Origin: Octopus sinensis
Lineage: Eukaryota
Direction of reading: 5' to 3'
Assembly: GCF_006345805.1 (NCBI RefSeq)
Contig: NC_043010.1
Location: 44,392,001 to 44,456,000, forward strand
Length of the DNA: 64,000 nucleotides
Shown one piece after another: positions 31,308-49,304 of the stretch; the first letter of the stretch is position 1, and each line of letters begins with the position of its first letter. A program made the translations under genes and the position numbers. The notes below the pieces were generated by a model that was not told the origin of the DNA, did not search any database, and saw only the letters and a program-made list of their open reading frames with translations.

Positions 31308-32560
31308 CAATTTTAAGGGAAATAATGTTATCAATTAATTTATATAATTTTTATGGATAGGGAAAAGCATTATACACTGAAGCAGAAGATACCCATAGGA
31401 AGACTACAAGAAATATAGAAAGAAGTGGTGAAGAAACACAAGGTTTGGAGAAGAATGGCAATGTGATATATTATAGACTCATTCAAAATAGAAAAATAAG
31501 GACATTGAAATGGCATAAACGATGAAGTGTTCTTCTCTCAAGGCTAGAACATTAAACTTTCAACTAAGTCCATTAAGCTTTTGACAAAAATGCAATTGGG
31601 TATTACCTGTTCACTGTAATGAGTTCAGTGTTATGGATTGCCTACAGTAAAACAAACAAGTGTCCTCATTGCTTACTGTGTTCAGTTTCACTCTCCATGT
31701 GGATATATCTTGGAGAAGGGTGGTGTATACTTGGCTGACTTATGTTAAATATAATGTACAATGGTTAAGTTAGCAGTGATGCCCCGGTTACCAAATTCAT
31801 TAAGTGAATAGCCAAAAATGTGTATAGTTTACATTTGAAGATAGTGAATTAAAATGTAAATAAATTTAACTAATCAGATCTGAATATATTTTCATCTCTA
31901 TGTATACGTGAGATGGGGTGGGGTAATAGATCTTGCATTATTTTCTGAATGCATTCTACTGGTACTGAAAATTGAGATCAAGGAAGCTTTTGCCCTTTTG
32001 CTCAATGTGTGGTTTCTGTCTGCACTGAGCTTGCCTTGGCTATAAGATATTGTATTACTTTCAGTGTGGATTTTACAGGTTTCATCAACTGAAATACCCT
32101 GTTGTTGAATTACAGTGAAATGAGAGAGTATTCCACAGATACGTGTAATTATTGAGGTAGAATAAGCATGATAAGGCTGGCTCTTTGAAATATACATACA
32201 AACCATTTGATGAGCTTTCAAATAGTTTCTTTCTACCACATTTCATTCGTTAAGTTTGGATTGACTCAAGGCTACAGAAAAAGACACTGACCAAAGTTCA
32301 TAATACTGTAATTCAACCCAGGACCACATCAGTTTAACAATTTGGCCATTTCTGTATCCATTTTTATCCAGAGACAATATGTGTTAATGGTAAAGGAAAA
32401 AAATAGTTTCAATACAAAATAGACAGGCAAACCAAACAATATATAAAAAATAGACAGGCACAAGTAAATCAATAGTTAAAATGCAGTCATTAACTGCAAT
32501 AATAAAATATTTTTAACCAACAATGAGCCACTTTATAAAATCAAATAACCATTTACTCAC

Positions 32561-33209
32561 TTGACTGGTTTTGTTGGTGCATCCAATTGGGATGGTTGAT
32601 CTGAAGATTGTTCTACTTCTGGTACTAATGATAGTGATGGTGGTGGTTGCTGTTGTTGTTGCAATTGCTGCTGTTTTTCTGAAAGCTGCTCACCTTCTGG
32701 TTGTTGCTGCTGCTGCTGTTGTTTTTGCAAAGGTCTCTCAGCTTCTTGCTGCTGCTGTTGTTTTGGCACTGGACTCTCAACTTCAGGCTGCTGTTGTTGT
32801 TGCTGCAAAGGTCTCTCAGCTTCTGGTTGTTGCTGCTGTTGTTTTTGCAAAGGTCTCTCAGCTTCTTGCTGCTGCTGTTCTTCTTGCAATGGACACTCAG
32901 CTTCTGGCTGCTGCTGTTGTTGCAGCAAAGGTCTCTCAGTCTTTGGCTTTTGTTGTTGCAAAAGTCTCTCACTTTCTGACTGCTGCTGCTGTTGTTGTTG
33001 TTGTTGCTGCTGCATAGTTCTCTCAGCTTCCGACTGCTGCTTCTGTTTAGAGACAGGACTGACCATGCCTTCTGATTTCTGCAAACATTCAACTGACTCA
33101 GCAATGTCCTTACCACATATCTCTGAAGACTTAGCCAACTCACTAGACATTTCAGAAAATACCTGTGTGTTTGGCTCCTTTGGAGCAGGGAAACTGTCAG
33201 TAATGCCAT
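32561..33209 (-). CDS. TACC: Gln-rich coding exon (649 nt, phase 1 in, phase 2 out) of the same gene
   Basis: Acceptor tgtttatatattccag| at 33210 gives an in-frame junction with the giant exon (CCT GAT G|AT GGC ATT = PDDGI). Donor GTC AA|gtgagt at 32560. The open frame encodes DGITDSFPAPKEP...(AERPLQKQQQQQPE)n...APTKPV. Confidence 0.78.
32640..33040 (-). repeat. About nine degenerate (A/S/T)ERPLQ-polyQ-PE coding repeats made of CAG/CAA tracts
   Basis: Seen in the translation of the Gln-rich exon; the longest pure tract is Q11 at 32980-33012. Confidence 0.9.
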
Positions 33210-33972
33210 CTGGAATATATAAACATTCATTAGAGCTACTGATTGACATGACAACATTCTAACATATTAGCTATCAAAAGGTGAATGATATTGTGACATG
33301 GGAACATTACAAACAGCAAAGTTTACATGAAGTTATGGTGTAATATTGTAACACTATAACGTAGTATGTACTCGTGGATTTTAATATTTAGTTATAGATG
33401 CAATGATATTTGTTTAGTCCCAGGTCAACCTTAATTTCTTTTTCATTGGCTTGGCTTTAAGGGGCTGTACTTATGATTTTTGCAGGCCCTATGAGACTGG
33501 GGAGATTAATGCAATTGATATACCTCTTGAACATCTGTAGAGCAATGACTGCAAGAAAAAAATGTGCACAGAGGGAATTCCAAAGAGAGAAGACTGATGT
33601 TCTAGGGGAAATGGAAAGTGTCTAGAAGGGAAATATGAGTGTGGAAAAGAAGCAGAATGAGGGAGTCATGAGTGTCTGAGTTGGGGGGCATAATACCAGC
33701 CACCAGTAGAACAGGCAGGGTGGATTAGAGTTGGGAGACATTGGTGAATGACTTTATGCTAATCAGTTAAGTAGGGATTTTAGGATGTAGTTTAAGAAGT
33801 CTGTGCAAATGTGTAGCAGTAGTACCTCCACCCAAGATGTGGGAACAGTACACTGTTGTGTGTCTCACTTGGGGTTCATAGAGTTAATAGTGTTGGGAGT
33901 TGAATTCTATTCTAGCTCTAAAGATGAAGGCTAATCATCATGAGGTAGTTTTGGCTAAGTTGAGGATGTGCA

Positions 33973-34809
33973 CCATAAAAACCCATGTAATTTATGTACT
34001 TTTTTCACAAAAACAAAAATAAACTTTAGAACACCTCTCTTGTTCAATAATCACTGAGTTAAACTTGCAAAGCTGTTTATTTTCTCTTTTCAATATTTAA
34101 TGTTTATTTTAGCAGGTTACCAATCTATCAGTTTGGTTTCCCGGTTAAAATGGTAATGACAAATTTATAAGTTTGCTCGACATTTTATAAGTGTGAAAGG
34201 GATTAAAATTTCAATATTCTGTATCAAAGGTTCCAACAAGAATAGGCAGAAAATCAGAGATTGAGACAAGAAGATACTTTTGACCAATCAGAATTCTGTT
34301 TACATAATCAGTTTGATCCTCTGTCGGTTGAGTAAAGTGTCATCCAAGCTAATATTTATTATTAATTAAACTTATTTTGCAACACTTGTGCGTATTTATC
34401 AGCTTTGTTTTTGTTGATAAAAATTATCAACAACTTTTCCTGTGATCGGAATTTGAGAAGACATACAGAAGTATGCTAAAGATTGGACGTAATCTTTTGT
34501 GGGCAAGAAATGTAACATAAAGCTTATTAAAAACAATACAAAAACTTTGTAATTTAATAGCTTTCAATGTGATAGCTGTCAAACAGAAATTATTTTTATT
34601 TAATGAAAATTTAATAAAATCTAATCATAAGTAAGTGAAATTATGCTAAATACAACTAAATTGAAAACCTTTTTCCCCTGGCCATATTGGCAATTCTGAA
34701 AACTTTTGGGTGCGAATTTTACACGAGCTGAAGCTTTTTTTAACAATTTTTATCCTGAAAATCACCTGCATAAATTACACAGGTGTGCAAATTACATGGA
34801 TTTTTATGG
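33973..34809. mobile_element. Non-autonomous Tc1/mariner-superfamily (Tc2/pogo-type) DNA transposon, about 840 bp
   Basis: Terminal inverted repeats (TIRs) ccataaaaacccatgtaattt and aaattacatggatttttatgg (20 of 21 match), flanked by CA and TA (a decayed TA TSD). Removing it restores the LINE frame. Confidence 0.75.
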
Positions 34810-35135
34810 TATTCACCAGGAGAAATCCAGTGATGCTAAAGCCTAACATTTATAGCAACCTAGGCTGTTCTAAGTGCACACTGTTCATATCTATGGTGTG
34901 GGTATGATGTTCTCATAACATGTTTGTTATTGTGTATCAGTATTGTTGAAGGAAACACTGAAAGATGTTTTAGTAGACTCTGTTTTGAAGTCAATGCAGA
35001 TTGGCCACGAAATGTCTATGTTGCAAGTGGATGATACTTGGGTGCAGAAGGTTAAATAGAATGAAAGGTGGTACCATCTGCATAGAAGTGAGCATTGTTC
35101 AAAGTGATGACAAACAAGTCATTGATGTATTAGAA

Positions 35136-35463
35136 CAGTGATTCCCAGTATGGGGGCTTGTGCTTCACTGGTAGGGCCTGGGAAAATTGTAGTGGGGTGT
35201 GGGATCTAATTTTTTTTTTTTAGAGGGACATGGAATTGTGAAAATTTCTTTTTCCTAGTAAATGCACAACACCTATACTCAGCTAGTCAAGCCAATCCTT
35301 CCAGCCAAGCATACTGTGCAAAGAATGTTTGCTGCAGTGTAGCACAATTCAAAAGTGATAAAATATTAAAAATAAACTTGTCTTTTTTTCAACCACTGGT
35401 GGGGCATATTTTTTTCTGGAAAGTTATAGTGGGGCCTGGGGGAAAATAGGTTGGGAAATATAG
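35136..35463. mobile_element. hAT-type MITE
   Basis: Termini cagtgattcccag...ttgggaaatatag, with 8-bp flanks tattagaa and tatcagaa (one mismatch). Confidence 0.6.
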
Positions 35464-36672
35464 TATCAGAAGAAGAAATCTTGTTGCTGATCTTGAAGTA
35501 AGAGAGATGAGTGGCAAAGTAAGCACAATCTATTTATGTGTAAACACCACTTTTCAGAATGAAATTTGACTGCTGAATGAAATATGGACAAGACTAGGGA
35601 TAAGGGTTGAGAAATTTGTGCCTTAAAGAGGAACAGGGCATGTGGTTTGCATGTAAGTGAGAGGTGATGTGTGGAGTCCAGGTTGGATTGGAGCAATTAT
35701 AACTTGTACGAGTTATTTTAGCCATCTAAAAAAAAATGCATGCAAAAATTTTTAAAGGTTAAGAAATAAATGAATAGTGAACTTTAACAATTTATTATTA
35801 AATGGTTGAACTAGTTCTTTCATAATATAATTGCTTCAGCTTCAATAGACTGTCACAAAAATCCAATAACTTGCTAGACAAGAACAACTCTGAAATTATC
35901 AGTCATTGATTAAAGCTACAGAAAACAGAATCAATTGCTGGCTACTTGGATTTCTGAAATCCAGAAAAGGTTAGCTTACTGTTAACAGCATTAAGCAGAG
36001 CTGTATGTCACTTATTTATAGCTAGCTAGACCAAATTAACAAGAGTGCAATGACTTGGTCATAGCAATTGTGCTCTTGATAGTTTGGTCCATCTAACTGC
36101 ATCTTGTAATGCAACCCACCACACTATCAGCTAAGTTATTGTTGAGCTCCAGGTAAGGCCTGAACAATCATACCTGTGATCAACTGGATATATTCCATCT
36201 CTCTCTCTATTTTTTTTAATGCAGTGGATTACATGATCCAAAGTGTCATTCTATTTTAAGCTTGTAGAATGTAATTTGAGTTAGATTTGGTAGCTATTTG
36301 TAGCAGGCTAAACACTCATGGACAGCATCCCTAGTTATCTCTTCTTAGTGATCTACAACAGCAGTATTTATCATAATTCATGATGTAAAATATTTTAAGG
36401 TTGTAACATCAGAACATTAAGATATCGTTTAAATGTAACACTGTAACATGTCAGGGAATTGAAGTTCCATAATTTAGCTGTTAGTGGAAGACGAAACAAA
36501 ATGTCTATTTTTTTCTTTTACCTAATGTTAAGAACTTTGAGACAAGAGAGCTTCAATGTAGTCATAAAAACTGCTAGAAGTAGTAACCAAATTTCTTTCA
36601 TATCATGCCCTATCATTAAAAAAAAAAAGGAAGAACACACTGGATAGTGATGCAGTTTTAGATAAACTAGTC

Positions 36673-37066
36673 TTTTTTTTTTTTTTACTTGTTTCAGTCA
36701 TTTGACTGCGGCCATGCTGGAGCACCGCATTTAGTCGAGCAAATCGATCCTGGGACTTATTCTTTGTAAGCCCAGTACTTATTCTATCGGTCTCTTTTTG
36801 CTGAACTGCTAAGTGACGGGGACGTAAACACACCAGCATCGGTTGTCAAGCAATGTTAGGGGAACAAACACAGACACACAAATACACACACATACATATA
36901 TACGACAGGCTTCTTTCAGTTTCTGTCTACCAAATCCACTCACAAGGCATTGGTCGGGCCGGGGGCTATAGCAGAAGACACCTGCCCAAGATGCCACGCA
37001 GTGGGACTGAACCCGGAACCATGTGGTTGGTTAGCAAGCTACTTACCACACAACCACTCCTGCGTC
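36673..37066 (-). mobile_element. SINE family A, full length and young
   Basis: Reverse complement is nearly identical by eye to 62192-62591; CpGs are retained and there is a poly(A) tail. Confidence 0.92.
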
Positions 37067-37319
37067 TGAATAAAAAACAAAAAAATATGTGATGGGATAC
37101 TTATATCTGAAGGCCTTTGATCATGGATTTGCTAATTTGGGGCTAATTAACAACAACTTTGAAAAGAAAAATCCCATATATTACACTGGAGGAAATAAAC
37201 AGAATTGTAGAAAAGAAAATTAAAACAATATATTTATGTCTGACTCAAGTTATATATGTTAGTGTGTTTATTGCTTATATACTTCCTATACACTTCCTGG
37301 TACCATCTAATAATTGCTT

Positions 37320-37510
37320 CAAATTTTAGCAGGCTATAATTTTTAGGGAAAAGAGGTTAGTCAATTAAATCAACCCCAGTACCTGACTGTTACTGTTTGT
37401 TTTTTTTAATGTATGAAAGGCATAATTCACCTCAGTGATATTTGAACTCAGAATGTAAGGCCAGAAGAAATGTTGTTAAGTATTTTATATGATGCAGTTC
37501 ACCACCTTCG
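37320..37510 (-). mobile_element. SINE family C, decayed
   Basis: caaattttagc...atcaaccccagt...gaaaggcataattcacctcagtgatatttgaactcagaatg. Confidence 0.65.
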
Positions 37511-39238
37511 TACTATCTAATGATGGAAGTGGAACAAATAACCATTCGGCAGAATTCATGATCAGATTGCGAATCTAGAACTTGTGGTACCAAAAAGTAT
37601 ATAGCTTACCAACTCACTTGAATTCTTTTAAATTTGCACAAACTTGGATAAAATAACAAATTTTAAGAAAGTAACAAAAGTAACACAATGATAGAAAATA
37701 CAAAAGAATAAAAGTGCAGCATGCAAAAAGGCAAAGTGTGCTAAGTATTTCAGATTGCAGATTTCCCCTGTTTTTGTACAATTTTATATTTACTATCCTG
37801 TTTCCACTTGATACTTATAACATCCCCTCTTACCTATAAAATCAAATCACTAGTCATATCCACCTGTCTATATATTTTTTCTTTCATCAACATACTGCCA
37901 TTTGAAGTCCATTTAGAAGCTACTATCCACCATTATTTGATTTACTCTTTTATAAAGAGGACATCTTAGGATTACTTTGCATGGAATTTGAAGTAAAATT
38001 ATAATAGTCAAGTTAACTATCGTATGTATATATATATATAAAACACATATATTCTTAAAAATTTTGTTTTAGATCGCTAATTTTTTTAATGGCTGACTGT
38101 AAGGTTGCACCTTTCTCTAAGTGAAAAACTACCCAAGAAATTTCTAAAAGTCTGTTGAACTACTTCAAGCTAAAAAACAAAAAAACAAACAAAAACCCCC
38201 AGATATAGTTAAGCTAATAAATATTTGACTCCATCATAAAAATAATGCTATCAAAAGGCCCATATTTTGATATTACTAGACCGATTTCCCTGATTCATCA
38301 TTATCCTATTTTTCCTTCTAGTGTAGTGTATCTAAAACTATATTATCCAATACATCATTTTTTATGATAGTTGGATGTGATTTAAAGGCGTATTTGCTGA
38401 TATTTCTAGCTGGCCAAGTGGTCATATATACAAGCTTCTTCATTTCCTAACACAGTTCAGTTTTTGTTTATTTTGTACTAATAAGTAATTTGAGTGTAAT
38501 GTAATGATGATCCTACATTTTTAAAGTAATTATCAAACTAATCAAAAGGAAATTATCTTTCCCTTCTTTTACTCTAGATTGCCATTTGTATGGATCTAGC
38601 TTGAAGCAACTGATTTATCATTATTTATGAGTAGAATCCAGAACTAGAGAACTATTTTTTAAAAAATTTCATTTAAATCATTTTAAAATGTCTTATTTTG
38701 TTTGAAATTTAAAACTGCCTATATTGGATCTTTTTTTTCTTTTACTATTTGTCCCTTGTAGCATCATAACCATAATTACCAGCACCTTCACCACTAATCC
38801 ACTCAGACTAAAACATTTCCATGCTTATATTAGTGAAAATTCAATTTCATTAATGAAATCATTTAAAGAAACCAAACTTACAAACATCTAGTATAATTCC
38901 AGGTAAATACCAAGGCCAGGAGTTAAACAATAAGGAAGTCAATACTGCAACTGTTTCTAGTAAAAACCAACACCAGTGGTCAGATTTAGAAATGGTCAGA
39001 TGAAATGGAAAGTCAAGCTTACTGATAAACTCAGTGATGCACCAACAGAAGCAGAGGTCAAACCAGGGAGAAGCCAAACTTGCAGGCAATATGCCACACA
39101 CCAAAATCAGAATAAGATGGATGAAGTTGAATGCAAATGAATGAATATCATATGGCAACTGAATGGCAATGAATGAACAGAATCTGATGGTTAAAGCAAA
39201 AGAATTATTCAAAGCAGTCATTCTTAAGCTATACTAAC

Positions 39239-42200
39239 CATCAGGGAGAAGAAACACCTTCTCTGTTGTACCATCATCAACAGATTGATTGGCTGTCTTC
39301 ATAGAGGTGAGCTTAGTGCTGGGCTCAGTCTCTTCAGTGGGGGTCTTGCCATGAAGCATATTGTGTTCGTCCCTGCATTCAACCCTGTCTGAGTCCTGGG
39401 ATGGTGACTGTGATGACTCACTTCCTGGAAATCCACTGACGCTGTCATCGGATGTGGAAGTCCTAGTAAATGAAGGACTACTATCTTCCACATTGATGCT
39501 GTCTAAAGGAATTCTGGGGGCAGGTTTGAAAGAGTCTATGCTTTGCTTCTGCTTTTCCTTTGCTGTGCTTTTTCCTGTGCTATGTGGACGTTGAAGTGGA
39601 GCACTATTAAGGACAGGAGGACAGACTGCAGAAGGGCCAAGTATTGCACTAACTAAACGTTGTGATCCAATAATTAATGATGCAAAAACAGATTCACTGT
39701 CATCATTGAAATAACCTTCAAGAGCAGATGGATCTTTGTTAATCAGGTTAGAAGAATCATTATCAGCTTTCTCTACAAAGTCTAGCATTTTATTCTTAGC
39801 AGAACTAGCTAATTCATTAGACTGAGGTTTTTCAAGCTGTTTAGGAAGCTTAAATTCTTGATTAATATCTGAAAGAGGATGATTTAAATCTTCAATTGGC
39901 ACTAATTTTTCATTTGTTTCACCTAAACTTTGAGATTCTTTTTGATACTTTGTATCTTTCTCAGAGGGACATTGAACAGCTGGAATTTGACAAGGACTTT
40001 GGTCTGTTTTACTGGTTTCATTTTCACCATGAGGCAAATGAAATGCACTTTCTGAAGTATCAAAGCCAACCGATGGCTTCTGATTTTCAGAATTTTCTGT
40101 CATTACTTTTTCTAACAAAGATTCTCCAGTAGCCGCTTGATCTGGTTTTCCCAGGGTTTCCGACAACTTTTCAACTATATCTGAAGAGATACTATCACTA
40201 GATTTGTTAACATTGTTAAAATTTTCTACACCAAATGTGTCATTTAAAGATGCTAAAGCACTACTTTTATTAGTTAGGTTTTCAAAGTTGGCAGAAAGAA
40301 CTTCTTTAGTGTTATCAAAAGTTTCAAACTCCTCATCAGAATCAAAAGGAGATTTATTCTTTAAAGTGACATCATCATCAGTCTCTATTACATTGTCAAA
40401 GTTATTTAAATCGTCAACTTCGACACTCCCACCTAACCCTGTATTTTCGTTTACATATTCAGGTGACTGTTCATTAGGCTTGAGTTCTTTATTTTCAGCT
40501 ACTGAAAAATCTTCAGTAGTAGGGATGTCATTATTCTGTAACAACTCATCATTTTGAGAAACTTCTTCAAGATTTAAATCATGAAAAGGTTCTTTAAAAG
40601 CACTTTTATTACATTTTCTGTCATCTCTTACAGTATTTGAAATATTGGCACCAGATGATAGAACATCATCATTCAGCTCATTAGTTAAAGAGTCAGTCTC
40701 ATTTTCTTCAGTTTGTGCATCAACTAAGGAATCAGTGCTTGTTGATATTTTCTGAGTCTTCTCTGAATAATCTTTCTCAACTTGAGATTTTAAAAGTATG
40801 TTATCATTTATAGCTAAAGGATCTCTATCATCTTTAATATCTTCATCAAAATTAGAATAGGCCCTGTCATTGACCTGCATTTCAACTGGAGATTCCAGAA
40901 GAGTATCTTTATTTTCAACTAAGGGCTCTTTATCATTTGTAAGATCTTCAGTCAAATTACTAGGGTCACTGTTTGCCAAATTTTTATCAATTTGAGATTC
41001 CAAGAGGGTACATCTATCACCTTCAACTAAGTGCTTTTTATCAAATGTAAGATCATCAGTTAAATTACTAGGGTCACTATCTGCCAAATTTTCATCGATT
41101 TGTGCTTCCAAAAGGGTACTTTTATCACCTTCAACTAAGGGTTTTTTATCAAATGTAAGATCTTCATTTAAATTACTAGGGTCATTGTTTGCCAAATTTT
41201 CATCAATTTGAGATTCCAAAAGGGTACTTTTATCACCTTCAACTAAGGGTGTTTTATCAAATGCAAGATCATTTAGATTATTAGGGTCACTGTTTGCCAA
41301 ATTTTCATCAATTTGAGATTCCAAAAGGGTACCTTTATCACCTTCAACTAAGGGTTCTTCCTCATCTGTAATATCTCCAATAAAATCATTTGGGCCACTA
41401 TCTGCCAAATTTTCATCAATTTGAGATTCCAAAAGAGTACCTTTATCACCTTCAACTAAGGGTTCTTCCTCATCTGTAATATCTCCAATAAAATCATTTG
41501 GGCCACTATCTGCCAAATTTTCATCAATTTGAGATTCCAAAATGGTACTTTTATCACCTTCAACTAAGGGTTCTTCATCACCTGTAATATCTTCGGTCAA
41601 ATTATTAGGGGCACTATCTACCAAATTTTCATTAATTTGAGATCCCAAAATGGTATCTTTACCACCTGTAATACCATCAGTCAAATTACTAGGAGCACTA
41701 TCGGCCAAATTTTCATTAATCTGAGATTCCGAAAGGATATTTTTATCACTTTCAACTAAGGGTTCTTTATTACTTATAAGATCATCAGTCAAATTACTAG
41801 GGACACTGCTTGCCAAATTTTCATCAATTTGAGATTCCAAAAGAGTACCTTTATCACCTTCAATTAAGGGTTCTTTATCAACTGTAAGATCATCAGTTAA
41901 ATTATTGGGGACACTGTTTGCCAAATTTTCATTAATTTGTGCTTCCAAAAGGGTACCTTTATCACCTTCAACTAAGGGTTCTTCATCACCAGTAATGTCT
42001 TCAGTAAAATTACTAGGGTCACTTTTTGGCAAATTTTCATCAATTTGAGATTCCAAAAGGGTACTTTTATCATCTTCAATTAAAGGTTCTTTATCAACTG
42101 TAAGATCACCAGATAGATTATTAGCGACACTGTTTGCCAAATTTGCATTAATTAGAGATTCCAAAAGGGTGTCTTCATCACCTTTAACTAAGGGATGTTT

Positions 42201-45190
42201 ATCACCAATAATATCCTCACTAAAATTACTAGTGGCACTGTTTACCAAGCTTTCATCAATTTGAGATTTATCACCATTATCATCTCCAACTAAGGGTTCT
42301 TTAAAACCACCAACTAAGGATTCTTCATCACCTGTAATATCTTGAGTCAAATCACTAGGGGCACGGTTTGCTAAATTTTTATCAATCTGAGATTCCAAAA
42401 GAATGTCTTTATCACCTTTAATTAAGGGTTCTTTATCACTTTCAACTAAGAGTTCTTGTTTATCACCCGTAATATCTTCAATCAAATTATCAGGGTTACT
42501 GTTTGCCAAATTTTCATCAATCTGAGATTCTAAAAGAGAACCTCCATTACAAGCAATTGAAGGTTCTTCAGTTGATTCTCTGAGTTCATTTGAATTCATT
42601 TGACTTCCTGAAATGACACTCTTATTAGTAGCAACTAAGGAGTTTTCAGCATCTGCATTATTTTCTGTACATTTAAGAACATTTTCGGTCAATTGTTTGT
42701 CAATTTGAGACCCTAAAATATTATCTTCTGTTAGTTGCAATTTATCAGAGATATATTCACTAAAATTACTTTGTTCATGTTTTTCTGATTCAATATCTTC
42801 CACTTCATTTTCCTTGGAAGCTGCACTAGAGCAATTCCCACTGTTCTTTAAAGTAGTCAAGTTATCCTTAACTTCAACATCTGCAAACTCATCATACTCA
42901 TCATTCAATCTGCTCTGATCACCCTGTGTGCTAGAATAAATATTTTCCACATTATCTTTTCCCATTAAATTTGTGTTGTTACTATGGCCATTTAAATTTA
43001 TTTTAGGGTCTGTTTTCTCAGACTCACTCATTTTCAAAGCTAAATCTATATCTTTATAATCTCTATCAGTACTTAGCTCTTTTCTATTAGTATCTATTGA
43101 CAGACCATTTAATTCTTCAAGAATTTTAGAATTTAAATCATTGTCTTCTAAGCTAAATTCAGGAATATTCCCAGTATCGTAATCTAGAGGGGGATTTTCC
43201 TTTGTAGCTCCCAAATTTTCCTTTTCTGAAACAGTGCCCTGACCATCTTTTAATTTATCTTCTAAAGCTAGATCAGTGTCTTTTATGCTTGTTTCTGTAT
43301 ATAATTCTTTGGTAACATTTTTGTCTGATTCTTCCTTGACTGCCAAGGAAATACGACCATTCCCAAAATCATTGTCAGAATGAAGTTTCTCACCATTTTC
43401 AGAAGAATAAGTATTGCCTTTTATAATCATTGCTTCAGCTTGGAGATCTTCATCGAAACAAGTTTCATCCTTTGGGGAAGTTGCCAAATTTGTGAGGTCA
43501 CAGTTGTCACTAGGGCTGAGAGGTAAAGAATCCATACCTTCTTCACTTCTTAAATCATCCCCTTTACCAAGATCTTCATAGCATGATGTCACAATACTTT
43601 CCCCAATACCACTGTCTTCACATAAATTTGGACTTGAAGTTATTGAATCAGATGTCATTTCATTTTCTAGCTTTTCAAACTTTCCAAGCATAAGTAACTC
43701 TTTGTCCTTTTGTGTGGACAATTCTTCATTATCATCAAGGATCTTATGACTGTCATCTTTATTGATACATAAAGATGCATCATAAGGTTCCATATGCTTA
43801 TCTTCCATGTCTATTCCAGATTCAGAAAGTGATAATTTATTCAAATTAATGTCTTTTGATGAGGAATCAATGACATTTGGTAAATTATTTCCATTCTCTT
43901 TAGAGTTCTTGTCCATTTCAATTGAATCCAACATGGCATCAGGATCATCAATTTCACATTGTTCTGGATGATCGATATTCTTAGAAACATTTAAGTTTTC
44001 ACTATTCTTTGCCTCCAAATTTTCTTTGTAATCAAACTTCTTTTCAGGCAATTCATCATCAAATTGCATGAGTTCATCTTCATTGGATAAAGCATCTGTA
44101 AATTCAAGATCCTCATCATCTTCATCATCATCATCATCATCATCATTTCTCATCACCACATTGGAAACATCTAAAACTTCACTGGCATTAAGGCCAGTAT
44201 GTTTAATATTGTCTTCTGACATCTTTGAATAACTGGTATCTGTAGGAAATTCTGATTCACGCTTTAAGCCAACTTCTTCCAAACTACTTGAACAGTTATC
44301 AAAATTTTTCATATCTACCTCATTTTCCTGAAAATCATTTTCAAAAATTGCATTAGAAAACTCATTGGAATTATCAACCATTTCATCAGTGATAAACTCT
44401 TTCTGGTTGTTCAAGTCATCTGGCATCAAGTTCTGACCTTCATTTTCAAAGAAATCATCACTAACTGCTGTATTACCATTTTTCTCCACATTAGAAACAT
44501 CTAAAACTTCACTGGCATTTAGGCCAGCATGTTTAATATTGTCTTCTGGCATCTTTGAATAACTTGTATCTGTAGAAAACTCTGACTCATGCTTTAAGCC
44601 AACTTCTTCCAAACCACTTGAACAGTTATCGAAATTTTTCATATCTACTTCACTGTCTTGAAGATCATTATCAACTATTGAATGAGAAAACTCATTGGAA
44701 TTATCCACCATTTTATCAGTGATAAACTCTTTCTGGTTGTTCAAGTCATCTTTCTGGTTGCTCAAGTCATCTTTCGGCTCTTCTTCATTTTCATAGAACT
44801 CACTCACTGCTGTATTACCATTTTCTTCAATATTTCGGTCATTAGATTGATTGGGAGAATAGCCAAGATTATTAGTCTTTGATAGAAATGGATCAGAATT
44901 ATCCATTAAATCTTGTTTGTTAAACTTAGGTGCAAGTGGTGGAGAACAGGCAATTTTAGTTTTTGTTTCAAAGGGGTTTATATTTAGGTTACCATCTGAG
45001 TTGGGAGGAGAGCCTCCTAGTTTGTCTCGAGAAACAAATGGGTTCATCTCGTCCAAAAAGTCCAAATTATATTGCCCTCTTGGTAAAATAGGAGAATCAT
45101 TCTCTTCAGGTGGTTTTGGTTTCTTCACAACTTTTTTCTTTTTCTTAGTTTGTTGAATAGACTTCTTGGAAATCATTTTATATTTTCTGT
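39239..45190 (-). CDS. TACC: Giant internal coding exon (5,952 nt, 1,984 codons, phase 1-1) of a probable TACC-family (transforming acidic coiled-coil) gene; acidic, low-complexity, repeat-rich
   Basis: Stop-free ORF of 1980 aa. Acceptor ttttttgtttttttctttttacag| at 45191 and donor GATG|gttagt at 39238. The N-terminal KKKKKVVKKPKPP followed by LPRGQYNLDFLDEMNPFVSRDKLGGSPP, NINPFETKTKIACSPP and DPFLSKTNNLGYSP resembles the KGxYxFDxD..NFNPF..SP repeats of TACC proteins. The exon itself is very likely real; the TACC identity rests on motif recall only (about 0.6) because the coiled-coil domain is not in the window. Confidence 0.8.
40800..42545 (-). repeat. Coding tandem array of about 15-16 copies of a 108-bp (36-aa) unit, consensus ESQIDENLANSDPSNLTEDITGDEEPLVEGDKGTLL
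   Basis: Read directly from the translation; the 108-bp period was checked at 41341 versus 41449. Confidence 0.95.
44160..44831 (-). repeat. Coding tandem duplication with a 330-bp (110-aa) period inside the giant exon
   Basis: NGNTAVS...KEFITD.MVDNSNEFS...MKNFDNCSS.LEEVGLK.ESEF.TDTSYSKM.EDNIKH.GLNASEVLDVSNV occurs twice; matching starts at 44161 and 44491. Confidence 0.95.
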
Positions 45191-45377
45191 CTGTAAAAAG
45201 AAAAAAACAAAAAAATGTTGAGATTATATTTCAAAAATATGTTTGAAAATAGAAATTACTGCAAATAGGTGGGGGGGGGGGGGTGTAAAGTGTGTGTGCA
45301 AAAAGTTATCTACTCTTTTTCTGTAACTTGTACTAATGTTACTACATAAAAAGCACACAATGGATGTATCTTTTACT

Positions 45378-45738
45378 GATCATTAGACTGTGGCCATACT
45401 GGGGCACCACTTTGAAGAATTTTAGTCAAATGAATCAACCCCAGTATCTTTCTTTTTTTTTTTAAAGCCTGGTACTTATTCTATTGTTGTCTTTTGCCAG
45501 ATCACTTAATTATAGGGATATAAACACACCAACAACAGTTGTCAAGCAGAGGTGGGGTACAAACACAAACACACACACTCAACAGGCTTCTTTTACTTTC
45601 CATCAACTAAACCCATTCACAAAGCTTCGGTTGACCTGAGGCTATAGTAGAAGACACTTGAGGTACTATGCAGTGGAACTGAACCTGGAACCAAGTGATT
45701 GGGAAGTAAACTTCATACCACACAGCCATGCCTGTGCA
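45378..45738 (-). mobile_element. SINE family A, about 190 nt upstream of the giant-exon acceptor
   Basis: Collinear with the other family A copies. Confidence 0.85.
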
Positions 45739-45994
45739 TATGTTTCTGACTGAGATGTAATATTCTGTGAATAATGAATCCAGAAAACTGAGTGAGTTTC
45801 AAGAGCTAAAAAGAGCTCTACCAATTTCATTCAATCTCTTGCAATGCATCTATTTCACACCTGATCCTGACTCATCTGTGACGTCTAAGGTATCATGTGA
45901 CTGAAATCATTAACTTAAGTTCTTAATCTGAAATCTCCCAAATAGTTCACATATACCTCTACTGCAACAGTAGAGATGAAGAATATGACATACA

Positions 45995-46120
45995 TATGGA
46001 AGAGCATTGTAAAAAATGAAGGAGAGTATATTTTAGATTAAAAAAGAACTTTGTTCATCTTAATTTTGAAAATTAAAAGTAGCATAAAAAAACTGCATTA
46101 CTTATGAGCTGACCCAATAC
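45995..46120 (+). mobile_element. Mariner right-end fragment, same family as 10625-11131
   Basis: atggaagagcattgtaaaaaatgaaggagagtatattttagattaa...ctgcattacttatgagctgacccaata matches 11010-11131. Confidence 0.85.
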
Positions 46121-46439
46121 TTACACCAAGTGTAAAAACATCTCCTGGTCAGTTCAGTCCAACAAAAACCTAGGCTATTACATAACACGTACACCATACA
46201 TCTCAGAACTAGTCTCTATTCTTGTCAGACTCTTTGATATATTTCTCTCTCTACAGAGATCTATTCCATTAATAAATGAGAAGCTTCAAAACTGTTTCAT
46301 CAAACTTCACTTGCCAACTATTAACCCATTTTGGACACAACATGTATATTATTTGTAACAGATACACACATCTTATACAACTCATGGTTCAATAAGCCAC
46401 TGTAAACAGAAATAACACTATGTCATTCCAGCCATGCCA

Positions 46440-47470
46440 TCTAAAAGTGATGGAAATTATTGTTATGAGACATCTTTTTATTCTTCCCTCAAAGGCTACT
46501 AATATGGCACTCATTTCCCTATTCCTCCTCAATGACCATTAATATGGTTTCTGTAAAGCCAAATCTACTGAGACTTGTGCTTTTATGTTACTCACCAGTC
46601 ATCCCTTCTTTGGAAAAAATTGCTGAGAAGAATATTATCAAGTATGATAATATTCTCCTCAGCAAAGAAGAATATTATCAAGAAAGCATTTGGCTGTTTT
46701 TGGCATGAGTATCTCTGGCTAAGTTACCTCATCTTTTATGCCAGAAGCTTCTTGTCAAATTAAGTTATCACATCATGTTCTAGTGGGATTCTCTATGATT
46801 CCCATCTTATCATCTTGAGTGTTTCAAAGGTTTGGCTACATCTTGCACTCTTTTCTTTCTCTAAAACAATAAAATACTTTCTATCACCTTGAACAACAGC
46901 CAATTCTAGGCAAATGACACCACTCTTTCTTATCCCAGACCTTCTGCTCCTAGGTATCATCTACAAACAACCTAAACACCTCATATTAAATCTGCCCTGT
47001 CTTATGGATACAGATTATGGGAACCTTCTGCAAATGGCAATGCATCAATCTTCTTGCCTTCAATCACTGATGATCTTATTGGCAATCTCTCATTTATAGT
47101 AGAGCAAAAACTGCATCCTAAAGATTAGCTTTTCTCTTCAAAGCCAGGAACATTTGCTGACTATCTTTAATGCTCAATATGCAGCTATTACACATACAAA
47201 TCTCTGAGATCACAGCTAAAAGGAAGCCAACAAACTAGTAAGGAGTCACTTGTCAAGACACTTCCTGCCTTTTCTATCACTACTACAACAGCTTCTGCTC
47301 CTTAGAGACAGCTACTTTCAAACAAGCTCATCCAATACACTCATCTCTCATACTATCCACTCCTCAACCCACCAATATTCTCTATTTCTTCCCTAAAACA
47401 TCAACCCACTGAAATTCCCTTCCATACACCTTTTTCTGCAGTTGTTAACTTACAGTTGTTCAGACTGAAC
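46440..47470 (+). mobile_element. Old CR1/Jockey-type LINE RT region, same family as 33.5-35.6 kb
   Basis: NDH*YGFCKAKST, IIKKAFGCFWH (similar to ISKAFDRVWH), SFLSN, F*ANDTTL (similar to YADDSTL), KLAFLFKAR, FYHYYNSFCS, FFPKTS..*NSLP. Confidence 0.7.
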
Positions 47471-48949
47471 ATCTCATGTTCAAAATCCACTAGTTTCAGA
47501 GAGTCTTAGGTTAGACTAAATTATAAAAACTATAAAAATGTCTGTCACCCAAGGCCATCTCCTCCATACTAATGGAAGGAGACACTTTGTGTCCCTTTAC
47601 AAGAGTAGGTATTGCTACTTATACAGCATTAGAGCATTATGAGAGAACTCATGAAAAGGAATCATAGATTGCCAAGCTAAATGATTTACTTTACACATCC
47701 ATCACAGTGATTGCATCAACTAATGTTGATACCACATCATCTCAAAATACTAAAACAACAAAACAAAATGTCATAACAAAAATAGAAAATGTAATATCCA
47801 TGCTCAAAGACAACTTCTACTCAACCTGACCACCCCAACTGAAAACAAAATACAGTAGTATATTGTTGAAGAGCTAGTACTTAATTTCAGTTTCTATACA
47901 TGAAATAGGTGAAAAATCTACCCTTATGTTACCTGAGATGACTGATATCAGTCATCTTAGGTAACCCTACAGATAATCTTCATCACCACCCCTCATCAGT
48001 TTCCTGTAGTTAGCAAACTCAAGAGTATAGAATTATGTGAACTGTTCAAATATGCAGTGAAATAGCTGTGACTGGTAGACCAAAACCATATACACTAGAT
48101 TGTCTCACTTCTATTTTGGTTGATAGATCAGCTCCTAATCTACTTGACCAGATACAACAACCATTTTCATCCATCTGGTAAATATTTTGCTACTTCATAC
48201 ATAGAATATTGAGACAGTCTAGAAAAACATAGAAACAAAACTAAGACAAAGGGCAGAATGCCAATTAACAGATTTCATTTCAGTTTACTTTCGTGATTCC
48301 AGTAAAAATAGCAATCTCAGTAAAATTAAACCCAATGAGCTGATTGGAAGTCTAGCAAGAGTGGAAAAATTGGTTTCACAGATAGTTTAGCATCATTAGA
48401 ATGGTATATATGCTGTTAAGTTGTACCTATTCAGTGCAGAGAAATCAAAACTTCAACACAAGAGCTGGGCCAAGGTTCCAAGAAAAGAAATGGCAAAATG
48501 CCAAAAACTAGCAGCAACAACTGGTAAGAACTTATAAACTAGCTAAAACATAGAGCTTTTATCTTCATGTTTATGCAATTTAGCTACGCACAAACAGCAG
48601 ATATACACAAATCATCATTATCATCATCAACCAGATAATATCTGGTTTAATTTTCATCATCTTGTGAGTTGTCTAGGCCATACATACACAAACACATACT
48701 AACATCTGCATGACATTCAAAAGAACAGTTATACTATGGACCATTATGTTTTATAATATTAATTGCTAGTAGGGACACAATATATCGTTTAGGAAATATA
48801 ATATACTACCAAGTATATTAAAGTTTTATAAGTTAATATTGTGTCCTACTTTTTTTAAGTGTATCTCTATGGATTTTCTACGGAATTTAGACTCAGCATT
48901 GAAAGTTATAAAATTTTGTATACAAATATATCTATGTAAACAATGCAAT

Positions 48950-49200
48950 CATCATCATTTAACATCTTCCTTCTATGATGGCATAGGTCGGACAGTTTGA
49001 CAGGAGCTGTACCATGCTTCTGTGTCTGTTTTGGTATGGTCTTTATGGCTGGATGCCTTTTCTAACACCAACCATTCCGCAGAGAGTGCAAGGTCAGTTT
49101 TGGCATGATTTTTACAGGTAGATGTCTTTCCAAATACCAACCCCTTTACAGTGTACACTGGGTACTTTTTAAGTAGCACCTGCACTGACAAGGTCACCAA
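48950..49200 (-). mobile_element. RTE 3'-UTR-type short element
   Basis: (CAT)n tail, gctggatgccttttctaacaccaaccatt and gggtactttt. Confidence 0.7.
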
Positions 49201-49304
49201 GTAACTTTGTGAGACGATGAATCTTTGAGAGGGGAGGGGGCATTGGAGGAGGTGATCTTGTGTCAGATGATGAAAGGTTAGAGTGTGACAGAGTGAGAGA
49301 AACA

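What the first reader, a model, noticed from the sequence alone, without database searches (positions are those of the whole stretch)
39239..45190. 6-kb symmetric cassette exon adding ~1,984 acidic residues to a probable TACC protein
Seen: one stop-free exon of 5,952 nt (divisible by 3) with phase-1 splice sites at both ends, so it could be skipped or included without a frameshift. Known: TACC proteins are centrosome and microtubule regulators with a C-terminal coiled coil and variable N-termini; from memory, human TACC2 long isoforms also get their size from one very large exon. Inferred: a lineage-expanded giant isoform with a long acidic disordered arm, switchable by splicing, possibly tissue- or neuron-specific.
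Basis: partly seen in the sequence, partly recalled or inferred. Interest (0 to 1): 0.72.

Follow-up and report, generated by a model that had tools for sequence, protein, structure and literature searches.

The report
Two-length giant exon in octopus TACC
An octopus gene for the microtubule regulator TACC has a 6-kb exon that RNA contigs show cut at an inner splice site, which would give a 1,500-residue protein, while database models use it whole for a 2,900-residue one whose extra acidic arm likely acts as a long spacer carrying one conserved binding helix.

Summary
The 5,952-nt stop-free exon is real and belongs to the octopus TACC gene; the TACC_C exons lie about 250 kb downstream on the same strand. 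It is not a cassette. It holds the annotated start codon (14 of 14 models) and the N-terminal motif shared by mollusc TACCs. The switch is an inner 5' splice donor at 43394: contigs from 2 of 4 laid runs join 43394 to the next exon directly, and a third does by shared depth. That removes 4,155 nt (1,385 residues) in frame and predicts a 1,506-residue form that no protein search returned. The long form rests on database models of three octopods and on contigs covering the extension; its own junction was not among the listed joints. One contig reads through the far donor to an AATAAA, hinting at a third form without the TACC domain. The extension is acidic and repetitive, with one 30-residue hydrophobic island 27/30 identical to Argonauta. 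Giant ankyrin-G (270/480 kDa) uses the same layout, and this scan noted it before in other genes (skate lubricin, bivalve protein 4.1). Tissue specificity is untested. A new variant of a known kind; moderate interest.

The parts
39239..45190 (-). Giant exon, long form (5,952 nt), first main coding exon of the TACC gene
   Evidence: AG/GT ends and open frame; used whole or with small internal deletions in 14 of 14 O. sinensis models
43394..45190 (-). Short form of the same exon (1,797 nt, phase 1 at both ends)
   Evidence: Contigs X1 record 1 and X21 record 18 join 43394 to 33209; X2 record 13 by shared depth 64.7; length and phase
43388..43397 (-). Inner 5' splice donor AATG|GTGAGA
   Evidence: Sequence; junction in contigs; N-G-E codons at this point aligned in O. 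bimaculoides and Argonauta
39239..43393 (-). Optional extension, 4,155 nt = 1,385 residues, 22.6% D+E, net charge -201, no Pfam family
   Evidence: covered by contigs in X1 and X2; 89.6% identical to O. bimaculoides and 35.8% to Argonauta over aligned positions
45174..45176 (-). Annotated start codon, 14 nt inside the exon
   Evidence: 14 of 14 O. sinensis models start here; the Argonauta model starts at the same residue
44877..45095 (-). N-terminal TACC motif with three NPF/DPF repeats (name 'SDP repeat' is recalled)
   Evidence: Motif found in 62 of 122 homologues, within the first 48 residues in 60 of the 62; 12 NPF/DPF copies in Argonauta
44156..44751 (-). 330-nt tandem duplication (1.8 copies, 91%) inside the short form
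40914..42540 (-). Array of 108-nt (36-residue) repeats with an LLESQ core, inside the extension
   Evidence: TRF; LLESQ-like cores number 16 in P0010, 11 in P0019, 12 in Argonauta over the whole proteins
39603..39692 (-). Conserved hydrophobic island, present only in the long form; predicted helix
   Evidence: 27 of 30 residues identical to Argonauta, the best window of the exon; most hydrophobic 19-mer of the protein in 3 of 3 species; helix in a low-confidence single-sequence model
39233..39239 (-). Far 5' donor G|GTTAGT, with an in-frame TAG inside it
   Evidence: junction to 33209 in 14 of 14 O. sinensis models and 9 of 9 O. bimaculoides models checked of 11; not among the listed joints
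38467..39238 (-). Possible read-through 3' UTR ending at AATAAA (38472-38467)
   Evidence: One contig, X1 record 2, runs unspliced from 41135 to 38475; first AATAAA of the intron begins 3 nt further on
32561..33209 (-). Next exon (649 nt, Gln-rich repeats), phase-1 acceptor shared by both donors, phase-2 donor

Best explanation
The stretch is the first main coding exon of the octopus TACC gene, and RNA contigs show it spliced from an inner donor 1,797 nt in, while database models splice it from a far donor 5,952 nt in, so the cell likely chooses between a predicted 1,506-residue and a 2,891-residue protein. Both forms keep the start codon, the N-terminal NPF repeats and the C-terminal TACC coiled coil (shown for the long models; inferred for the short form, whose downstream exons were not traced). 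The inner donor matches the splice consensus better than the far one, so the short form is probably the default and the long form needs the inner donor to be passed over (inferred). The extra 1,385 residues are predicted to be a disordered, strongly acidic spacer whose length drifts by 36-residue units. Near its end sits one conserved hydrophobic helix, which likely binds a partner or dips into a membrane, tethering the microtubule- and ch-TOG-binding coiled coil to a site the short form cannot reach (inferred; about 0.35 for this step).
For: Junction 43394 to 33209 at exact GT and AG ends, in frame, directly in 2 of 4 laid runs and by shared depth in a third, each from a different study. Extension covered by contigs in X1 and X2 while neighbouring intron bins 46350-47537 have depth 0 in all four runs. 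Frame open across the extension in three octopods at only 35.8% identity to Argonauta. N-G-E kept at the inner donor in all three. Far junction in 14 of 14 and 9 of 9 checked models. TACC_C E 1e-56 and Aurora-A-binding region above cut-off in P0010. Island 27/30 identical against a 36% background. Same layout described for ANK3 (PMC5422562, passages).
Against: The far junction 39239 to 33209 was not among the joints or pieces listed (124 joints and 17,215 pieces were cut from the output), and in X1 the only contig listed across that donor is unspliced. No protein of about 1,500 aa from an octopus was returned, so the short form rests on contigs alone. X23 did not show the inner junction. The runs are contigs guessed to be RNA; their depth cannot rank isoforms. 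Conservation of N-G-E is three residues of protein, not DNA. Nothing here tests function, tissue or the binding role of the island; its fold model has mean pLDDT 62.
Confidence: 0.78

Rival explanations
1. The extension is mainly an alternative last exon: when the inner donor is passed over, the RNA reads through the far donor, stops at the TAG inside it and is polyadenylated at 38472, giving a 1,980-residue acidic protein with the hydrophobic island but no TACC domain.
For: X1 record 2 runs unbroken across the far donor to 38475; the first AATAAA of the 6,029-nt intron starts 3 nt beyond, at about 1 such hexamer per kb; the spliced far junction was not listed in any of 4 runs.
Against: One contig of depth 4.7 in one run, which could be unspliced pre-mRNA. 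X2 covers the extension to 39314 and does not go on into the intron. All checked models of two Octopus species splice at the far donor, and the Argonauta model continues in frame to TACC_C.
Confidence: 0.2
2. One reading: the whole 5,952-nt exon is a cassette, included or skipped.
For: Both ends are phase 1 and the length is divisible by 3. An 8-nt candidate micro-exon upstream would supply an in-frame ATG, and 5 of the 11 O. bimaculoides models start with that M-Q, so a skipped form could be translated.
Against: The exon holds the annotated start codon and the family's N-terminal motif. In X1 and X21 the contig at the next acceptor runs into 43394, not into an upstream exon. None of 26 cluster members is shorter than 2,198 aa.
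Confidence: 0.08
3. The extension is intron sequence that leaks into RNA and has no protein role; the long models are annotation artefacts.
For: Low complexity, fast change, no hit outside Octopus among 1.84 billion representatives; annotation also lists repeat-unit deletions that look like mapping artefacts.
Against: A 1,385-codon open frame (chance about 1e-50) kept in three species at 36% identity, with whole-codon repeat changes and a 27/30 conserved island.
Confidence: 0.04

Closest known systems
TACC family (TACC1-3, mollusc TACC; Pfam PF05010 and PF25777)
   Same: C-terminal TACC coiled coil, Aurora-A-binding region above cut-off, N-terminal NPF repeats.
   Different: 2,715-3,378 aa in three octopods against 550-1,040 aa in 59 other mollusc proteins with the motif. 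The serine and dileucine of the TACC3 clathrin site are replaced. The database names these proteins 'PFC0760c', not TACC.
Giant ankyrin-G (ANK3) exon, 270 and 480 kDa forms
   Same: One giant exon used in part (first ~2,700 nt, in-frame splicing) or whole (7.8 kb) (PMC5422562, passages); Ser/acid-rich composition.
   Different: Unrelated protein. The ANK3 exon is internal and can be left out altogether (190 kDa form); the octopus exon carries the start codon. Neuron-specific function is shown for ankyrin-G and untested here.
Vertebrate TACC2 long isoforms
   Same: A TACC made about 3,000-4,000 aa long by an N-terminal arm (P0147, P0148); human TACC2 amplicons of about 2 and 7.5 kb (PMC5658375, passages).
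   Different: The arm lies before the NPF motif (residue 3,431 of 4,045 and 2,502 of 3,114) instead of after it, and shows no BLAST similarity to the octopus extension, so the two are likely independent expansions. That human TACC2 uses one skippable giant exon is recalled, not checked.

Membership tests
TACC family | C-terminal ~200-residue TACC coiled coil in the same reading frame | tested here: met
   PF05010 E 1.3e-56 at residues 2685-2884 of P0010; exons mapped colinearly on the contig
TACC family | Aurora-A-binding region before the coiled coil | tested here: met
   PF25777 22.6 bits, cut-off 20
TACC family | N-terminal Y-x-x-D..NPF repeats | tested here: met
   Three copies at the start of the exon; motif in 62 of 122 homologues
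TACC3-type clathrin-binding spindle form | Aurora-A serine (S558) followed by FDP and a dileucine | tested here: not met
   32 of 37 proteins with the motif (125 examined) keep R-x-S and FDP; the three octopod proteins have Leu for Ser and LEP-HS/QS (site from PMC3734082 passages)
TACC family | Binds ch-TOG and localises to centrosomes or microtubules | not testable with these tools
   Needs cells or purified proteins
Cassette (skipped) exon | Symmetric phase and length divisible by 3 | tested here: met
Cassette (skipped) exon | Transcripts that join the flanking exons directly | tested here: inconclusive
   None listed in 4 runs, but lists were cut, contigs drop rare forms and the upstream exon lay outside the laid stretch
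Cassette (skipped) exon | Lies inside the coding sequence, after the start codon | tested here: not met
   14 of 14 O. sinensis models start inside it; an upstream micro-exon could give an earlier start in some transcripts
Giant exon with alternative 5' donors (ANK3 type) | Inner in-frame donor used in RNA | tested here: met
   2 of 4 runs directly, 1 more by shared depth
Giant exon with alternative 5' donors (ANK3 type) | Far donor spliced to the same acceptor | tested here: inconclusive
   In database models; not among listed joints
Giant exon with alternative 5' donors (ANK3 type) | Tissue-regulated choice, long form in neurons | not testable with these tools
   Run tissues are not given

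The most novel reading that the evidence does not exclude
One octopod exon yields three proteins: a 1,506-residue everyday TACC, a 2,891-residue form in which a conserved helix on a 1,385-residue acidic arm anchors the microtubule-binding coiled coil to a membrane, and a 1,980-residue form without the coiled coil. The giant form is a neuronal membrane-to-microtubule tether that arose independently of giant ankyrin-G, in a TACC that has lost its Aurora-A/clathrin spindle site.
Probability: 0.13. Interest if true: 0.72.

Novelty: new variant of a known kind. Interest (0 to 1): 0.42.

Why it matters
It corrects the picture of this gene: the public proteins found are all giant and misnamed, while the spliced form seen in contigs would be half that size. 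If the long form proves neuron-specific, octopods would have reached the giant-ankyrin design independently, in a microtubule regulator, and the 30-residue island gives one precise target to test. Without tissue data it is one more case of a recurring exon layout.

Tried and rejected
Pfam on the exon alone: 0 families. HMMER with 1,184 residues of the extension against 1.84 billion representatives: 1 hit, the O. bimaculoides protein; the island lay outside that query. ESM Atlas: best score 0.80 for the repeats, no usable hit for the island; both uninformative. PDB sequence search with the island: 0. phmmer of the island against the 148 stored proteins: outside the two Octopus species only Argonauta passes. 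No run is on record as RNA; RNA status is the tool's guess. Lack of cover over the extension in X23, and little in X21, is not taken as evidence of tissue-specific use; contig depth (X2 64.7 on the short junction against 4.5-15.2 on the extension; X1 8.2 against 2-4.7) only hints that the short form is commoner. Papers: 'TACC'+'octopus' gave 3 unrelated papers, 'cephalopod'+'transforming acidic coiled' 0, 'SDP repeat' searches 0; a recalled paper on TACC evolution was not held. No squid or cuttlefish full-length TACC was identified, so 'octopod-only' and 'all coleoids' cannot be told apart. No complex prediction was run, as no binding partner is claimed.
Full report
Observation. The exon is as described: minus strand 45190-39239, 5,952 nt, AG and GT ends, phase 1 at both, 1,983 whole codons without a stop, 23% Asp+Glu. 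No other frame in the window is open for more than 233 codons.

Identity. The window is G000:C14:44392001-44456000. TACC_C matches lie on the same strand at C14:44177044-44182930. A search with the exon found 3 proteins among 7,977 scored: P0001 (100%, named Octopus sinensis 'protein PFC0760c' by its source), O. bimaculoides P0002 and Argonauta hians P0003, all with PF05010. The 2,891-aa isoform P0010 maps colinearly onto 19 coding exons over 260 kb and scores for TACC_C (E 1.3e-56) and the Aurora-A-binding region (22.6 bits, cut-off 20). The TACC identity is settled.

Why it is not a cassette. All 14 O. sinensis models start at the ATG at 45176, inside the exon. The first 100 residues hold a motif found in 62 of 122 homologues, within the first 48 residues in 60 of them; the 60 misses include many fragments and non-molluscs. 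The 59 other mollusc proteins with the motif at the start are 550-1,040 aa, median 629. The exon is therefore the enlarged first coding exon. An earlier start is possible: 5 of 11 O. bimaculoides models begin M-Q-D, and an 8-nt AG/GT-flanked candidate micro-exon at C14:44466784-44466777 would supply it. In 4 of 4 runs a contig continues past 45190 into 100-439 nt of sequence outside the laid stretch; its best candidate is a non-coding exon ending at C14:44504472, which is an inference.

The real switch. Four of 24 listed runs, from four studies, were laid on 31500-49300. X1 record 1 maps 33020-33209 at positions 51-240 and 43394-44103 at 241-950; X21 record 18 shows the same join; X2 record 13 has depth 64.7 at both places; X23 does not show it. 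43394 is followed by GTGAGA and 33209 preceded by CAG, both phase 1. The short exon is 1,797 nt and the part left out 4,155 nt or 1,385 residues, predicting 1,506 aa from the 2,891-aa model. No octopus protein of that size appeared in searches covering 30-5,018 aa (each scored about 8,000 candidates, and one search listed 120 of 142 hits) or among 26 cluster members. I recall that the NCBI annotation pipeline drops variants much shorter than the longest; this is unchecked. N-G-E at the donor aligns in all three species.

The long form. Contigs cover most of the extension in X1 and X2. Fourteen RNA-like runs of four studies hold 0.32-0.38 of the words of 32500-42400, close to the 0.385 that extension plus next exon make up; only two of them were laid. 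The far junction is in 14 of 14 O. sinensis and 9 of 9 checked (of 11) O. bimaculoides models, but it was not among the listed joints, which were cut. In X1 the only listed contig over the far donor runs unspliced to 38475, 3 nt short of the intron's first AATAAA; a TAG lies inside the donor, so this would give 1,980 aa without TACC. It is one contig; X2 stops at 39314 and does not enter the intron.

Anatomy of the extension. It is 22.6% acidic, net charge -201, without tryptophan, 89.6% identical to O. bimaculoides and 35.8% to Argonauta over aligned positions, against 99.4% and 86.4% for the C-terminal part. A 108-nt repeat array spans about 40914-42540, with fewer units in O. bimaculoides and recognisable cores in Argonauta. 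One window at 39692-39603 is 27/30 identical to Argonauta, the best in the exon, and holds the most hydrophobic 19-mer of the protein in 3 of 3 species (Kyte-Doolittle 1.35-1.57, below the usual 1.6 for a membrane span, a recalled threshold). A single-sequence model makes it a helix at mean pLDDT 62. No relative of it was found in the PDB, the Atlas or the stored non-octopod proteins.

Mechanism. Shown: two donor sites, use of the inner one, RNA cover and an open frame over the extension. Inferred: competition between the donors, use of the far donor in living tissue, disorder of the arm, and a binding or membrane role for the island. [quoted passage not shown] The octopod proteins lack that serine and dileucine, which 32 of 37 motif-bearing homologues keep as R-x-S and FDP, so a non-spindle role is plausible but unproven.

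Comparison. ANK3 gives 270 and 480 kDa forms by using about 2,700 nt or all of a 7.8-kb exon (PMC5422562, passages): the same logic in an unrelated gene. Vertebrate long TACC2-type proteins carry their arm before the NPF motif and do not match the extension; human TACC2 gives amplicons of about 2 and 7.5 kb (PMC5658375, passages). Of 5 TACC hits above 1,575 aa, 3 are octopods and 2 vertebrates. Two searches found no paper on cephalopod TACC; other searches were seen as listings only, and no supplements were read. The scan has no note near this place but two unchecked notes of like layouts in other genes.

Verdict. Observation confirmed, TACC confirmed, cassette replaced by an inner-donor switch. 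New variant of a known kind; interest 0.42.

Noticed in passing
G000:C14:44333347-44333240 (L020): Octopod TACCs have Leu for the Aurora-A serine and lack the FDP-dileucine of the TACC3 clathrin site, which 32 of 37 motif-bearing homologues keep; unnamed P0027 keeps the serine but not the rest.
   Followed up: partly
G000:C14:44466784-44466777 (L027): Candidate 8-nt micro-exon with AG and GT ends that holds an ATG and would give the M-Q-D start of O. bimaculoides models.
   Followed up: partly
window 40914-42800: Six of 14 annotated isoforms differ by internal deletions of 84-321 nt; four can be placed as GT..AG inside the repeat array and two cannot. They may be mapping artefacts, repeat-number alleles or true inner introns.
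   Followed up: partly
window 33118-44931, exonic: Contigs differ from the genome by T>C (A>G on the coding strand) more often than A>G in all 4 runs (14:7, 14:3, 7:3, 10:3, repeats included); six of nine sites checked change a residue. Could be A-to-I editing or alleles; no matched DNA.
   Followed up: partly
window 36252-37439 and about 45400-46000: Dispersed repeats that draw very high contig depth in all four runs.
   Followed up: no
window 32561-33209: Gln-rich repeat exon, longer in Argonauta, with small length differences in contigs and annotated isoforms.
   Followed up: no
G000:C14:44231789-44231529, 44217576-44217505, 44195403-44195359: Three downstream phase-0 exons are left out in some annotated isoforms, so true cassette exons exist elsewhere in this gene.
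   Followed up: partly
G000:C14:44497000-44505500 (L030): CpG-rich stretch of about 8 kb in a CpG-poor region, at whose edge the candidate first exon ends.
   Followed up: partly
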